A stretch of DNA of 64,000 nucleotides, taken from NCBI RefSeq assembly GCF_009914755.1, contig NC_060937.1, one strand, 5' to 3'. The translations under genes and the position numbers were made by a program. This stretch comes from the human T2T-CHM13v2.0 reference genome, Homo sapiens. The stretch's first letter is position 1. Each line of letters starts with the position of its first letter. The notes beneath the pieces were generated by a model, which was given only the letters and a program-made list of their open reading frames with translations, was not told the origin of the DNA and made no database searches. This document shows positions 10,657-20,510 of the stretch, in pieces.

Positions 10657-10674
10657 TAGAGCTATGACATTTTC
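10657..10674. repeat. Target-site duplication, left copy (tagagctatgacattttc)
   Basis: Identical to 20493-20510. Confidence 0.95.
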
Positions 10675-10904
10675 TTTTTTTTCTTTTTTTTATTATTATA
10701 CTTTAAGTTCTAAGGTACATGTGCATAACGTTCAGATTTGTTACATATGTATACATGTGCCATGTTGGTGTGCTGCACACATTAACTTGTCATTTACATT
10801 AGGTATATCTCCTAATGCTATCCCTCCCCCCTCCCCCCTCCCCCCACCCAACAACAGGCCCATTGTGCGATTTTCCCCTTCCTGTGTCCAAGTGTTCTCA
10901 TTGT

Positions 10905-13900
10905 TCAATTCCCACCTATGTGTGAGAACATGCACTGTTTGGTTTTTTGTCCTTGCGATATTTTGCTAAGAGTGATGGTTTCCAGCTTCATCCATGTCCC
11001 TACAAAGGACATGAACTCATCATTTTTTATGGCTGCATAGTATTCCATGGTGTACATATGCCACATTTTCTTAATCCAGTCCATCATTGTTGGACATTTG
11101 GGTTGGTTCCAGGTCTTTGCTGTTGTGACTAGTGCTGCAATAAACATACGTGTGCATGTGTCTTTATAGCAGCATGATTTATAATCCTTTGGCTATATAC
11201 CCAGTAATGGGATGGTTGGGTCAAATGGTATTTCTAGTTCTAGATTCCTGAGGAATCGCCACACTGACTTCCACAATGGTTAAACCAGTTTACAGTTCCA
11301 CCAACAGTGTAAAAGTGTTCCTGTTTCCCCACATCCTCTCCAGCACCTGTTGTTTCCTGACTTTTTAATGATTGCCATTCTAACTGGTGTGAGATGGTAT
11401 CTCATTGTGGTTTTGATTTGCATTTCTCTGATGGCCAGTGATGATGAGCATTTTTTCATGTGTCTTTGGCTGCATAAACGTCTTCTTTTGAGAAGTGTCT
11501 GTTCATATCCTTCGCCCACTTGTTGAAGGGGTTGTTTGTTTTTTTCTTGTGAATTTGAGTGCTTTGTAGATTCTGGATATTAGCCCTTTGTCAGATGAGT
11601 AGATTGCAAAAATTTTCTCCCATTCTGTAGGTTGCCTGTTCACTCTGATGGTAGTTTCTTTTGCTGTGCAGAAGCTCTTTAGTTGAATTAGATCCCATTT
11701 GTCAACTTTGGCTTTTGTTGCCATTGCTTTTGGTGTGTTAGACATGAAGTCCTTGCCCATCCCTGTGTCCTGAATGGTATTGCCTAGATTTTCTTCTAGG
11801 GTTTTTATGGTTGTAAGTCTAACATTTAAGTCTTTAATCCATCTTGAATTAATTTTTGTATAAGATATAAGGAAGGGATCCAGTTTCAGCTTTCTACATG
11901 TGGCTAGCCAGTTTTCCTAGCACCATTTATTAAGTAGGGAATTCTTTCCCCATCTCTTGTTTTTCTCAGGTTTGTCAAAGACCAGATAGTTGTAGATGTG
12001 TGGTATTATTTCTTAGGGCTTTGTTCTGTTCCGTTGGTCTATATCTCTGTTTTGGTCCCAGTACCATGCTGTTTTGGTTACTGTAGCCTTGTAGTATAGT
12101 TTGAAGTCAGGTAGCGTGATGCCTCCAGCTTTGTTCTTTTGGCTTAGGATTTACTTGGCAGTGCAGGCTCTTTCTTGGTTCCATATGAACTTTAAAGTAG
12201 TTTTTCCCAATTCTGTGAAGAAAGTCATTGGTAGCTTGATGGGGATGGCATTGAGTCTATAAATTACCTTGGGCAGTATAGCCATTTTCATGATATTGAT
12301 TCTTCCTATCCATGAGCATGGAATTTTCTTCCATTTGTTTGTATCCTCTTTTATTTTGTTGAGCAGTGGTTTGTAGTTCTCCTTGAAGAGGTCCTTCACA
12401 TCCCTCGTAAGTTGGATTCCTAGGTATTTTATTCTCTTTGAAGCAATTGTGAATGGGAATTCACTCATGATTTGGCTCTCTGTTTGTCTGTTATTAGTGT
12501 ATAAAAATGCTTGTGATTTTTGCACATTGATTTTGTATCCTGAGACTTTGCTGAAGTTGCTTATCAGCTTAAGGAGATTTTGGGCTGAGATGATGGGGTT
12601 TTCTAGATATACAGCAGTCATGTCATCTGCAAACAGGGACAATTTGACTTCCTCTTTTCCTAATTGAATACCCTTTATTTCTTTCTCCTGCCTGATTGCC
12701 CTGGCCAGAACTTCCAACACTATGTTGAATAGGAGCGATGAGAGAGGGCATCCCTGTCTGGTGCCAGTTTTCAAAGGGAATGCTTCCAGTTTTTGCCCAT
12801 TCAGTATGACATTGGCTGTGGGTTTGTCATCAATAGCTCTTATTATTTTGAGATACGTCCCATCAATACCTAATTTATTGAGAGTTTTTAGCATGAAGGT
12901 TGTTGAATTTTGTCAAAGGCCTTTTCTGCATCTATTGAGATAATCATGTGGTTTTTGTTGTAGGTTCTGTTTATATGCTGGATTACGTTTATTGATTTGT
13001 GTATGTTGAGCCAGCCTTGCATCCCAGGGATGAAGCCCACATGATCATGGTGGATAAGCTTTTTGATGTGTTGCTGGATTCGGTTTGCCAGTATTTTATT
13101 TAGGATTTTTGCATCGATGTTTATCAGGGATATTGGTCTAAAATTCTCTTTTTTTGTTGTGTCTCTGCCAGGCTGTGGTATTAGGATGATGCTGGCCTCA
13201 TAAAATCAGTTAGGGAGGATTCCCTCTTTTTCTATTAATTGGAATAGTTTCATAAGGAATGTACCAGCTCCTCCTTGTACCTCTGGTAGAATTCGGCTGT
13301 GAATCCGTCTGGTCCTACACTTTTTTTGGTTGGTAGGCTATTAATTATTGCCTCAATTACAGAGCCTTTTATTGGTCTATTCAGGGATTCAACTTCTTCC
13401 TGGTTTAGTCTTGGGAGAGTGTATGTGTCCAGGAATTTATCCATTTCTTCTAGATTTTCTATTTGCATAGAGGTGTTTATAGTATTCTCTGATGGTAGTT
13501 TGTATTTCTGTGGGATCAGTGGTGATATCACCTTTATCATTTTTTATTGTGTCTATTTGATTCTTCTCTCTTTTCTTCTTTGTTAGTCTATCAATTTTGT
13601 TGTTCTTTTCAAAAAACCAGCTCCTGGATTCATTGATTTTTTGAAGGGTTTTTTGTGTCTCTATCTCCTTCAGTTCTACTCTGATCTTAGTTGTTTCTTG
13701 CCTTCTGCTAGCTTTTGAATGTGTTTGCTCTTGCTTCTCTAAATTGTGATGTTAGGGTGTGAATTTTAGATGTTTCTTGCCTTCTCTTGTGGGCATTTAG
13801 TGCTATAAAATTCCCTCTACACACTGCTTTAAATGAGTCCTAGAGATTCTGGTATGTTGTGTCTTTGTTCTTGTTGGTTTCAAAGAACATCTTTATTTCT

Positions 13901-14700
13901 GCCTTCATTTCATTATGTACCCAGTAGTCATTCAGGAGCAGGTTGTTTGGTTTACATGTAGTTGAATGGTTCTGAGTGAGTTTCTTAATCCTGAGTTCTA
14001 GTTTGATTGCACTGTGGTCTGAGAGACAGTTCGTTATAATTTCTCTTCTTTTACATTTGCTGAGGAGTGCTTTACTTCCAACTATGTAGTCAATTTTGGG
14101 GTAAGTGTGGTGTGGTGCTGAAAAGAATGTATATTCTGTTGATTTGGGGTGGAGAGTTCTGTAGATGTCTATTAGGTCTGCTTGATGCAGAGCTGAGTTC
14201 AATTCCTGGAAATCCTTGTTAACTTTCTGTCTCGTTGATCTGTCTAATGTTGACAGTGGGGTGTTAAAGTCTCCCATTATTATTGTGTGGGAGTCTAAGT
14301 CTCTTCGTAGGTCTCTAAGGACTTGCTTTATGAATCTGGGTGCTCCTGTATTGGATGCATATATATTTAACATAGTTAGTTCTTCTTCTGGAATTGATCC
14401 CTTTACCATTACATAATGGTCTTTGTCTCTTTTGATCTTTGTTGGTTTAAAGTCTGTTTTATCAGAGACTAGGATTGCAACCCCTGCCTTTTTTTGTTTT
14501 CCATTTGCTTGGTAGATCTTCCTCCAACCATTTATTTTGAGCCTGTGTGTGTCTCTGCATGTAAGATGGGTTTCCTGAATACAGCACACTGATGGGTCTT
14601 GACTCTTTATCCAATTTGCCAGTCTGTGTCTTTTAATTGGAGCATTTAGCTCATTTACATTTAAGGTTAATATTGTTATATGTGAATTTGATCCTGTCAT
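10905..14700 (-). pseudogene. L1 ORF2p remnant; endonuclease domain open for 286 aa, remainder frameshifted
   Basis: ORF 13840-14700 reads [16 protein letters not shown]...[14 protein letters not shown] 12151-12894 contains FADD. The C-terminus FSHIGGN* ends at 10905. Confidence 0.95.
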
Positions 14701-14763
14701 TATGATGTTAGCTGGTTATTTTGCTCGTCAGTTGATGCAGTTTCTTCCTAGCCTTGACGGTCT

Positions 14764-20080: not shown

Positions 20081-20458
20081 ATGGCAGATGCTCCTCCCCC
20101 AGTCTCGCTGCCATGTTTCAGTTTGATCTCAGATTGCTGTGCTAGCAATCAGCAAGGCTCCGTGGGCATAGGACCCTCCGAGCCAGGCACAGGATATAAT
20201 CTCCTGGTCTGCCGTTTGCTAAGACTGTCAGAAAAGCACAGTATTAGGGTGGGAGTGACCCGATTTTCCAGGTGCTGTTTTTCCTCCCTTCCCTTGGCTA
20301 GGAAAGGGAATTCCCTGACCCCTTGCACTTCCCGGGTGAGGCGATGCCTTGCCCTGCTTCGGCTCATGCTCGGTGTGCTGCACCCACTGTCCTGCACCCA
20401 CTGTCCAACAATCCCCAGTGAGATGAACCTGGTACCTCAGTTGGAAAGGGAGCTGTAG
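20081..20458 (+). CDS. ORF0: L1 antisense ORF0 homologue, open and extended to 125 aa (expression unknown)
   Basis: MADAPPPVSLPCFSLISDCCASNQQGSVGIGPSEPG...IRVGVTRFSRC matches the primate ORF0 peptide and lies antisense in the 5'UTR. Confidence 0.7.
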   Translation: MADAPPPVSLPCFSLISDCCASNQQGSVGIGPSEPGTGYNLLVCRLLRLSEKHSIRVGVTRFSRCCFSSLPLARKGNSLTPCTSRVRRCLALLRLMLGVLHPLSCTHCPTIPSEMNLVPQLEREL

Positions 20459-20477
20459 ACTGGAGCTGTTCCTATTC

Positions 20478-20487
20478 GGCCATCTTG
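20478..20487 (-). promoter_or_regulatory. YY1 site of the L1 internal sense promoter
   Basis: Reverse complement CAAGATGGCC at the L1 5' end. Confidence 0.8.
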
Positions 20488-20492
20488 CGCCC

Positions 20493-20510
20493 TAGAGCTA
20501 TGACATTTTC
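20493..20510. repeat. Target-site duplication, right copy (tagagctatgacattttc)
   Basis: Identical to 10657-10674. The following aa gives TT/GAAAA on the - strand, an L1 endonuclease-type site. Confidence 0.95.

What the first reader, a model, noticed from the sequence alone, without database searches (positions are those of the whole stretch)
10657..20510. TSD-flanked 9.8-kb L1 carrying a VNTR/HERV-E-pol cargo: candidate composite retroelement
Seen: one perfect 18-bp TSD and a poly(A) tail enclose L1 5' end + [79-bp VNTR / pol / VNTR / pol / VNTR] + ORF1 + ORF2 + 3'UTR. The insert has no TSD, poly(A) or LTR of its own, and it leaves the promoter start and the ORF1 ATG (18 bp from the junction) in place. 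Known: primate composite retrotransposons (SVA, LAVA) combine a GC-rich VNTR with fragments of other elements, but SVA uses Alu-like and HERV-K parts, not this unit or a class I pol. Inference: either the chimera retrotransposed as one RNA, making L1 a vector for a satellite/ERV cassette, or a resident L1 captured 4 kb of satellite DNA during break repair. This window alone cannot separate the two; the junction features lean towards repair capture.
Basis: partly seen in the sequence, partly recalled or inferred. Interest (0 to 1): 0.88.

Follow-up and report, generated by a model that had tools for sequence, protein, structure and literature searches.

The report
Old L1 holding captured satellite DNA
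A long-dead L1 retrotransposon on human chromosome 13 had about 240 bases of its leader replaced by a 4-kb piece of a known satellite/retrovirus-derived repeat, most likely during repair of a DNA break, and it is a one-off rather than a new mobile element.

Summary
A full-length minus-strand L1 (10675-20492) with a perfect 18-bp TSD carries a 3.97-kb insert of 79-80-bp GC-rich repeats alternating with two ~630-bp retroviral pol fragments.

The insert does not merely sit in the 5'UTR. It replaces about 242 bp of it. One junction has 5 bp of microhomology and the other has irregular G-rich bases. The insert has no TSD or poly(A) of its own.

The cargo is not a new cassette. The same pol-segment/VNTR arrays occur at 10 or more other human loci (chr3, 7, 9, 12, 13), none beside L1 5'UTR or ORF1. 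At chr3:8.67 Mb the array lies inside a provirus flanked by SATR1 satellite. This is the published "SATR-HERVE-SATR" repeat of the Xiao/DA core duplicons.

Both L1/insert junctions are unique in T2T-CHM13, even with up to 3 mismatches allowed. No mobile family exists in this genome.

Best reading (about 0.72): an ordinary mid-aged L1PA later captured a piece of a SATR/HERV-E array during double-strand-break repair, like a class 2 templated insertion. Capture during retrotransposition, or a lost chimeric progenitor, cannot be excluded without ape orthologues. Interest is low to moderate.

The parts
10657..10674 (.). Left copy of the 18-bp target-site duplication
   Evidence: (D7): identical to 20493-20510
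10675..10691 (-). L1 poly(A) tail, seen as a T-run with one C on the plus strand
   Evidence: read directly
10692..15797 (-). L1 3'UTR, ORF2, ORF1 and the last 18 nt of the 5'UTR. The ORF1 ATG is at 15779-15777. The reading frames are broken.
   Evidence: 39 other L1 loci are 91-95% identical over up to 1,999 bp; the longest minus-strand stop-to-stop frame is 291 aa. Searches give the end of L1 homology at 15797.
15798..16210 (+). First block of the GC-rich 79-80-bp VNTR. It starts with a 9-G run and an irregular partial unit of about 25 nt at junction 1.
   Evidence: GC 0.70
16211..16853 (+). pol fragment 1 (RT-RNase H connection region), with stops and a frameshift. Provirus homology spans 16253-16855.
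   Evidence: Pfam RT_RNaseH_2, E 4.4e-9, for 16564-16851; 93.5% identical to provirus piece L026:1501-2102.
16854..18320 (+). Second VNTR block, 18.6 units
18321..18943 (+). pol fragment 2, the same segment as fragment 1
   Evidence: 92.6% identical to L026:1501-2098
18944..19766 (+). Third VNTR block, 10.4 units, ending at junction 2
19767..19771 (.). 5-bp microhomology at junction 2 (CTGGC on the plus strand), shared by the VNTR unit and the L1 5'UTR
   Evidence: alignment of this L1 against intact L1 L049 and against neighbouring VNTR units
19767..20492 (-). 5' part of the L1 5'UTR (about 726 nt), starting at the L1 5' end. It has a private 35-bp gap near its start.
   Evidence: 89% identical to L049 and 83% to L050..
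20493..20510 (.). Right copy of the 18-bp target-site duplication
   Evidence: D7

Best explanation
An ordinary full-length L1PA element inserted here by target-primed reverse transcription. That event produced the 18-bp TSD and the poly(A) tail. Later, a double-strand break in its 5'UTR was repaired by end joining, with loss of about 242 bp. The repair patched in a 3.97-kb piece of a pre-existing SATR/HERV-E tandem array, made of a GC-rich 80-bp SATR1-related VNTR alternating with a ~600-bp HERV-E pol segment. The patch came either as copied or ligated DNA or as cDNA. The result is a single-locus rearrangement, not a mobile family.

Shown:
- the L1 hallmarks
- the replacement of L1 sequence
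- the anatomy of both junctions
- the uniqueness of both junctions in this genome
- the identity of the cargo with arrays elsewhere

Inferred:
- that the capture came after L1 integration
- that a break-repair pathway did it
For: 1. The L1 as a whole has a perfect 18-bp TSD and a poly(A) tail.

2. The insert has no TSD and no poly(A). It has no AATAAA or ATTAAA in the L1-sense strand.

3. Two intact relatives, L049 and L050, carry 241-242 bp between the two junction points. That stretch is missing here.

4. Junction 2 has 5 bp of microhomology. Junction 1 has none, but has a 9-G run and an irregular partial unit of about 25 nt. The section on class 2 templated sequence insertions in PMC5110952 lists these features: no TSD, no poly(A), microdeletion, microhomology, non-templated bases (abstract and section 9 read).

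5. Both junctions are unique.
- In the 201-mer searches, 0 of 39 other L1 loci scored extend past either junction.
- Whole-genome pattern scans with up to 3 mismatches find only this locus for the 32-mer and for the 36-mer. Each gave 1 forward and 0 reverse hits, and the controls gave 0.

6. The cargo existed independently.
- The same pol segment, with the same boundaries, alternates with the same VNTR at 10 other loci.
- 0 of these 10 loci have L1 5'UTR or ORF1 beside them. The region examined was 18 fetched stretches.
- At chr3:8.67 Mb the array lies inside a provirus, with contiguous pol running in and out. That provirus is flanked by satellite that matches published SATR1 primers.

7. The chimeric leader would be about 4.7 kb long with 52 upstream ATGs, 46 of them in the insert. 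By inference, this makes efficient ORF1/ORF2 translation and cis-mobilisation unlikely.
Against: - No donor array was identified. The two pol copies are at most 94% identical to any other copy and sit in an unresolved polytomy.
- Dating cannot separate capture after integration from capture at integration. The pol copies have terminal branches of 0.037 and 0.042. The L1 is 92-94% identical to its closest full-length-matching relatives. These values suggest similar ages.
- The insert has no poly(A) signal in the L1-sense strand. A read-through chimeric RNA is therefore not excluded.
- Only one human haplotype was searched, and no other primate. An unfixed or lost progenitor would be invisible.
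- I did not check whether 4 kb is within the usual size range of repair patches.
Confidence: 0.72

Rival explanations
1. The array piece was captured during retrotransposition itself. While copying L1 RNA, the L1 reverse transcriptase switched 18 nt upstream of the ORF1 ATG onto an RNA transcribed from a SATR/HERV-E array (antisense to pol). It copied about 4 kb, then switched back to L1 RNA about 242 nt further upstream and finished the 5'UTR.
For: - The TSD and poly(A) enclose the whole structure.
- Microhomology at junction 2 also fits template switching. That link is from recalled knowledge, not tested here.
- There is no poly(A) signal in the L1-sense strand of the insert.
- The divergence of the pol copies and of the L1 is similar.
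Against: - It needs two switches, the second returning to L1 RNA in the same orientation just upstream of the exit point.
- No other L1 with array sequence was found: 0 of 10 arrays lie beside L1 5'UTR or ORF1, and both junctions are unique.
- Nothing in the insert marks it as RNA-derived.
Confidence: 0.1
2. This is a mobile chimera. A progenitor L1 already carrying the array in its 5'UTR was transcribed as one ~10-kb RNA and retrotransposed here. L1 then acted as a vector for the satellite/ERV cassette.
For: - One TSD and one poly(A) enclose everything.
- The start of the promoter and the ORF1 ATG are kept.
- There is no internal poly(A) signal in sense orientation.
Against: - No progenitor or sibling exists in T2T-CHM13. 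Both junction k-mers are unique with up to 3 mismatches allowed.
- 0 of 39 scored L1 loci cross either junction.
- The leader would be about 4.7 kb, 64% GC, with 52 upstream ATGs. By inference this disfavours translation and cis-preference.
- A full-length 10-kb copy is unlikely on recalled knowledge of 5' truncation.
Confidence: 0.06
3. This is an assembly artefact, or the VNTR expanded in place from the L1's own 5'UTR sequence.
For: A 33-nt stretch of the VNTR unit (27 of 33 matches, including a 15-mer) resembles the L1 5'UTR sense strand 15 nt from junction 2. That test gave z = 3.8-7.7 against shuffles.
Against: - The similarity is in inverted orientation relative to this L1 and is short.
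- The same unit occurs at 10 or more loci without L1.
- The unit is homologous to the AT-richer SATR1-type units. It gave 23, 11 and 34 profile hits, against a mean of 0.6 or fewer in shuffles.
- The hub's annotation places RefSeq functional elements and a lncRNA exon across and inside the insert. By inference, the structure therefore exists outside this assembly.
Confidence: 0.02

Closest known systems
SATR1/SATR1v/SATR2 - HERV-E composite repeats. This includes 'SES' (SATR-HERVE-SATR), the flanking element of the Xiao/DA core duplicons, and the macaque SATR mixed arrays.
   Same: - The same ~600-bp pol segment alternates with the same GC-rich 79-80-bp units as at 10 other human loci.
- At chr3:8.67 Mb the array lies in a provirus flanked by satellite that matches published SATR1 primers.
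- Three of my chr13 loci match the three chr13 duplicated loci where PMC1794570 reports SATR2, with a constant offset of about 0.25 Mb between assemblies.
- PMC2700803 defines SES, and PMC5088589 places SATR1/SATR2/ERV1 at the edges of Xiao (passages read).
- The macaque preprint describes a GC-rich, variable-length SATR1v next to conserved blocks (passages read).
   Different: - Only an internal 3.97-kb piece is present here.
- It is inside an L1 5'UTR, with no canonical AT-rich SATR1. The SATR1_R primer gave 0 matches in the window with up to 3 mismatches.
- There is no proviral flank and no OR7E core.
- Which Repbase/Dfam name fits the 80-bp unit could not be tested.
Class 2 templated sequence insertions and NUMT-type double-strand-break repair patches
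   Same: There is no TSD, poly(A) signal or poly(A) tract of the insert. The junctions show target deletion, microhomology and irregular bases. These match PMC5110952 section 9. For PMC2567098 I saw only the start of the abstract in the search listing.
   Different: The patch is large (about 4 kb) and is a tandem array. The target loss is about 242 bp rather than a microdeletion. No donor was identified.
SVA and LAVA VNTR-composite retrotransposons
   Same: A GC-rich VNTR is combined with fragments of other retroelements, and the whole structure is bounded by a TSD and a poly(A) tail.
   Different: - SVA and LAVA are families of many copies with shared internal junctions. Here both junctions are unique.
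- The TSD and poly(A) belong to the host L1.
- The VNTR/pol module is antisense to the L1.
- The module spreads elsewhere without poly(A) or TSD: 0 of 8 arrays examined had them.
L1 chimeras made by template switching, and L1 5' transduction
   Same: Foreign sequence is joined to L1 within one TSD-flanked insertion.
   Different: Known chimeras and 5' transductions put the foreign sequence at the 5' end of the insertion. Here it is internal, with authentic L1 5' sequence upstream of it.

Membership tests
Full-length L1 (L1PA) insertion by target-primed reverse transcription | Target-site duplication directly flanking the element | tested here: met
   18 of 18 identical at 10657-10674 and 20493-20510
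Full-length L1 (L1PA) insertion by target-primed reverse transcription | Poly(A) tail at the 3' end abutting the TSD, and a T-rich nick site | tested here: met
   T-run at 10675-10691. The empty-site reading gives TTTTC/AA at the priming end. The consensus TTTT/A is as quoted in PMC5110952.
Full-length L1 (L1PA) insertion by target-primed reverse transcription | Colinear 5'UTR, ORF1, ORF2 and 3'UTR homologous to other L1 copies | tested here: met
   (91-95% identity to 39 loci). The ORFs are broken. The subfamily name was not testable without a repeat library.
Mobile VNTR-composite retrotransposon family (SVA/LAVA-like) | Several dispersed copies sharing the same internal junctions, each with its own TSD and poly(A) | tested here: not met
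   Both junction k-mers occur once in G000 with up to 3 mismatches allowed. 0 of 39 scored L1 loci cross either junction. 0 of 10 other arrays adjoin L1 5'UTR or ORF1.
SATR/HERV-E composite tandem arrays | The same pol segment, with the same boundaries, alternating with the same short-unit repeat | tested here: met
   The pol query matches from q2-3 to q643 at 10 loci. All copies correspond to L026:1501-2102.
SATR/HERV-E composite tandem arrays | Short unit related to SATR1 satellite | tested here: met
   A profile of 7 GC-rich units hits the AT-richer satellites at chr3 (23 and 11 hits) and chr9 (34 hits). Shuffles gave a mean of 0.6 or fewer, and 2 controls gave 0-1 hits. The chr13:45.7 Mb flank was not significant. 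The chr3 satellite matches published SATR1 primers, with 1 and 5 sites at up to 2 mismatches.
SATR/HERV-E composite tandem arrays | Match to the Repbase/Dfam consensus sequences SATR1, SATR1v, SATR2 and HERVE-int | not testable with these tools
   No repeat consensus library was available. The names rest on literature passages and on the primers.
Retroviral pol (class I, gamma-like; HERV-E) | Pol domains | tested here: met
   Window 16564-16851 matches RT_RNaseH_2 at E 4.4e-9. Provirus piece L026 carries RVP, RVT_1, RT_RNaseH_2, RNase_H and rve in that order. Breaks were read as X.
Retroviral pol (class I, gamma-like; HERV-E) | Assignment to HERV-E rather than another class I family | not testable with these tools
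   The only basis is the literature label for SATR-flanked ERVs.
Class 2 templated insertion / DSB-repair patch | No TSD or poly(A) of the insert, plus deletion, microhomology or extra bases at the junctions | tested here: met
   compared with PMC5110952 section 9
Class 2 templated insertion / DSB-repair patch | An identifiable donor locus | tested here: inconclusive
   The nearest copies are 93-94% identical, and the tree is an unresolved polytomy that includes the chr13:44.6 and 45.7 Mb arrays.

The most novel reading that the evidence does not exclude
The array piece entered through the L1 machinery. This could have been template switching onto an antisense SATR/HERV-E array transcript during reverse transcription, an endonuclease-independent cDNA patch, or a copy of an unfixed chimeric progenitor. 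L1 reverse transcription would then be one route by which SATR/HERV-E satellite arrays are seeded at new chromosomal sites.
Probability: 0.15. Interest if true: 0.55.

Novelty: new member of a known kind. Interest (0 to 1): 0.27.

Why it matters
The finding itself is ordinary: a dead L1 with a secondary insertion of a known repeat.

Its modest value is as a natural before-and-after record. The host is an L1, so the pre-insertion sequence is known from relatives. The locus therefore shows at base resolution how a piece of a SATR/HERV-E array arrived at a new site: loss of about 242 bp of target, 5 bp of microhomology, and no TSD or poly(A).

SATR repeats mark the breakpoints of the Xiao/DA core duplicons and of 8p23.1 rearrangements (PMC5088589, passages read). 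They also form megabase arrays in macaque subtelomeres (bioRxiv 10.1101/2025.08.04.668424, passages read). A clean example of non-homologous seeding of such an array bears on how these satellites disperse.

The finding also explains two doubtful annotations in the window: a 'collagen-like' pseudogene, and a lncRNA first exon that lies inside the insert.

Tried and rejected
- VNTR derived from the L1 5'UTR. A 33-nt similarity exists. It is inverted relative to this L1, and the unit is instead homologous to SATR1-type units. Rejected as the origin of the VNTR. It remains possible, but unproven, that it contributed to hairpin formation at junction 2.
- First alignment test of the AT-rich unit against the GC-rich unit. 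The harsh scoring gave a mixed result, with only 1 of 3 dimers significant. It was replaced by the profile test.
- CpG-island idea for the insert. GC is 0.64, but CpG observed/expected is only 0.33. It is not a CpG island by the usual criteria (recalled).
- Donor search by tree. It was unresolved.
- RNA-mediated spread of the array family. 0 of 8 arrays examined had a correctly oriented terminal A/T run together with a shared flank word at the boundary. One A10/T10 run, at the chr13:62.96/63.06 Mb duplicate pair, is on the wrong side. The left flank of one array was not in the fetched DNA. The boundaries were taken from BLAST and are approximate.
Only one 3.6-kb provirus piece (L026) and the chr3 locus were therefore studied.
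- Literature that did not help:
  - the D20S16 paper
  - the T2T repeat preprint, where 12 of 36 places were shown
  - the paper on tandem repeats derived from transposable elements
  - the first macrosatellite search
- Whether the locus is in print. The SATR1/SATR2 search found 31 papers and listed 25. No listed title or abstract start mentions an L1-embedded SATR array. This is not proof that none is in print.
- Supplements. Two of four supplementary files of PMC3606032 could not be searched. bioRxiv supplements are closed, so the macaque SATR tables were not seen.
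Full report
OBSERVATION. The window is human T2T-CHM13 chr13:79,918,001-79,982,000, as given by the hub and confirmed. The described structure is real.
- A perfect 18-bp direct repeat lies at 10657-10674 and 20493-20510 (D7).
- A T-run at 10675-10691 directly follows the left copy. This is the poly(A) tail of an L1 on the minus strand whose 5' end is at 20492.
- Tandem Repeats Finder reports a 79-80-bp unit in three blocks: 15826-16210, 16854-18320 and 18944-19771.
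- Two ~630-bp segments separate the blocks and are about 93% identical to each other.
- The ORF1 ATG is at 15779-15777, 18 nt from junction 1. A check showed that my first coordinate was 2 nt off.

CORRECTED ANATOMY.
- L1 homology ends at 15797 and resumes at 19767.
- Two intact relatives were compared: L049 from chr6 and L050 from chr1. Both have 241-242 bp between the two junction points. The 3.97-kb insert therefore replaces part of the 5'UTR rather than splitting it.
- This L1 also lacks 35 bp near its 5' end.
- Its reading frames are broken. The longest minus-strand stop-to-stop frame is 291 aa.
- The pol fragments are sense on the plus strand, so they are antisense to the L1.
- Window 16564-16851 matches Pfam RT_RNaseH_2 at E 4.4e-9. 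The upstream 98-aa frame gave no hit.

WHAT THE CARGO IS.
- A search of the window's own genome with pol fragment 1 scored 40 of 283 candidates and returned 58 matches. These comprise this locus, tandem arrays at 10 other loci, and 11 single-copy matches that lack the array-specific first 53 bases.
- The 10 array loci are chr13:44.6, 45.7, 62.96 and 63.06 Mb; chr3:8.67 Mb; chr7:151.2 and 155.2 Mb; chr12:9.39 and 31.0 Mb; and chr9:77.05 Mb.
- I fetched 18 stretches around the 10 arrays. None has L1 5'UTR or ORF1 sequence beside it. The only L1 hits were four generic 3'-end matches.
- All arrays use the same pol segment, L026:1501-2102, with the same boundaries. The array unit therefore arose once.
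- At chr3:8.67 Mb, contiguous pol runs into the first copy (L026 positions 3-2102) and out of the last copy (positions 1501-3602). There the array sits inside a provirus.
- The provirus piece L026 carries protease, RT, the RT-RNase H connection, RNase H and integrase in order.
- The chr3 provirus is flanked on both sides by kilobases of an AT-richer 63/76/78-bp satellite.
- A profile built from 7 GC-rich units of the window hits those satellites at chr3 (23 and 11 hits) and at chr9 (34 hits). Shuffles gave a mean of 0.6 or fewer hits, and two controls gave 0-1. The flank of the chr13:45.7 Mb array was not significant.
- Published SATR1 primers (supplement file 3 of PMC3606032) match the chr3 satellite at 1 and 5 sites with up to 2 mismatches. 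One of the two primers (SATR1_R) was searched in the window and gave no match with up to 3 mismatches.
- The 80-bp unit is therefore a GC-rich relative of SATR1, not canonical SATR1.

LITERATURE.
- PMC2700803 (abstract and passages read) defines 'SES' as SATR-HERVE-SATR, the conserved flank of the Xiao/DA elements. SATR there means SATR1 and SATR2. It dates Xiao amplification to 25-14 Myr ago.
- PMC5088589 (passages read) places SATR2, SATR1 and ERV1 at the edges of the Xiao core, and places SATR at duplicative-transposition breakpoints.
- PMC1794570 (one passage read) reports SATR2 at three duplicated chr13 loci. Their hg18 coordinates match my chr13:45.7, 62.96 and 63.06 Mb group with a constant offset of about 0.25 Mb. 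By spacing, they fit the flanking satellite rather than the GC-rich array.
- The macaque T2T preprint 10.1101/2025.08.04.668424 (passages read) describes a GC-rich, variable-length 'SATR1v' next to conserved 589-bp and 191-bp blocks. This resembles the layout seen here, including the 185-189-bp truncated pol pieces in the chr12 arrays. I could not test that equivalence.

IS THE CHIMERA MOBILE? No evidence for it was found.
- In the 201-mer junction searches, 0 of 39 other L1 loci extend past query position 99 or start before query position 77.
- Whole-genome pattern scans with up to 3 mismatches find each junction once, at this locus.
- The array family itself seems to spread at the DNA level. 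Some arrays are segmental-duplication copies, judged by flank identity: 96-97.5% for the chr7 pair, 99.2% for chr13:62.96/63.06 Mb, and 96% for chr13:45.7 Mb.
- 0 of 8 arrays examined end in a correctly oriented A/T run with a TSD.

MECHANISM.
- Junction 2 has 5 bp of microhomology (19767-19771).
- Junction 1 has none, but has a 9-G run and an irregular partial unit.
- Together with the loss of about 242 bp of target and the lack of a TSD or poly(A), this matches the features listed for class 2 templated sequence insertions. Those are read as patches placed during double-strand-break repair (PMC5110952; abstract and section 9 read).
- I therefore favour capture of an array fragment at a break in a resident L1.
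- Two rivals remain open: a double template switch during reverse transcription, and descent from a lost chimeric progenitor.
- In favour of the rivals, the insert has no AATAAA or ATTAAA in the L1-sense strand. Dating also does not separate the events. The pol copies have terminal branches of 0.037 and 0.042, and the L1 is 92-94% identical to the 6 of 39 relatives that match over the full 1,999 bp.
- Against a self-propagating chimera, the leader would be about 4.7 kb with 52 upstream ATGs.

VERDICT.
- The 'composite retroelement' reading is not supported. The 'repair capture' reading is.
- The cargo is a fragment of a known repeat system.
- The locus is a new instance of a known kind of event. 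Its modest interest is as a base-resolution record of how a SATR/HERV-E array fragment was seeded at a new site.

LIMITS.
- Only one human haplotype was searched, and no other primate genome.
- No repeat consensus library was available.
- The genome search scores only the best candidates, so locus counts are lower bounds.
- bioRxiv supplements, and two supplement files of PMC3606032, were not seen.

Noticed in passing
window 16256-16336 (minus strand): The first exon of the predicted lncRNA LOC124907021 (hub annotation) lies inside the insert, on the antisense strand of pol fragment 1. It ends at a CAG|GT splice donor at 16256/16255, read. The model then splices over the whole L1 body to exons at 9143-9212 and 7673-7758. 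RefSeq 'enhancer' elements at 15530-16530 straddle junction 1.
   Followed up: partly
window 17485-18354: The exon of the predicted 'collagen alpha-1(III) chain-like' pseudogene LOC124907104 coincides with the second VNTR block. The minus-strand frame at 17485-17913 is Gly/Pro/Ala-rich and repetitive, but shows no Gly-X-Y pattern. The gene call looks like a low-complexity artefact.
   Followed up: partly
L035/L036 (G000:C3:8661001-8681000): This is a provirus whose pol carries the VNTR/pol array internally. It is flanked on both sides by SATR1-type 63/76/78-bp satellite, so it looks like the 'SATR-HERVE-SATR' state. The array also contains ~620-bp spacers of unidentified sequence, and one spacer holds a SATR1-primer-like site at L036 700-719.
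   Followed up: partly
window 19688-19753 and every VNTR unit: The 80-bp unit is an imperfect palindrome, with 27-nt arms that are 78% complementary and a 12-nt loop. It could form hairpins, which may bear on the fragility or instability of these arrays.
   Followed up: no
window 19781-19813 versus VNTR units: A 33-nt similarity (27 of 33, including a 15-mer) links the VNTR plus strand and the L1 5'UTR sense strand, 15 nt from junction 2. It is in inverted orientation here and is probably chance.
   Followed up: partly
window about 20447 (L1 position 45/46): This L1 lacks 35 bp near its 5' end that both comparison L1s have.
   Followed up: no
L041, L043 (chr12:31.0 and 9.39 Mb); L037-L040 (chr7): Some arrays carry truncated pol pieces of fixed length instead of the full ~600-bp segment: 185-189 bp on chr12, and about 117 bp on chr7. 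The chr12 length resembles the '191-bp SATR1' block described for macaque SATR1-SATR1v core units. Whether part of what is annotated as SATR1 is pol-derived was not tested.
   Followed up: no
G000 chr8:12.37 Mb, chr4:8.91 Mb, chr11:67.7 Mb, chr3:128.4 and 132.8 Mb, chr2, chr9, chr13:40.6 Mb: Eleven single-copy matches to the pol segment lack the array-specific ends. Several lie in regions that I recall as OR7E/Xiao-DA duplicon sites. This was not checked.
   Followed up: no
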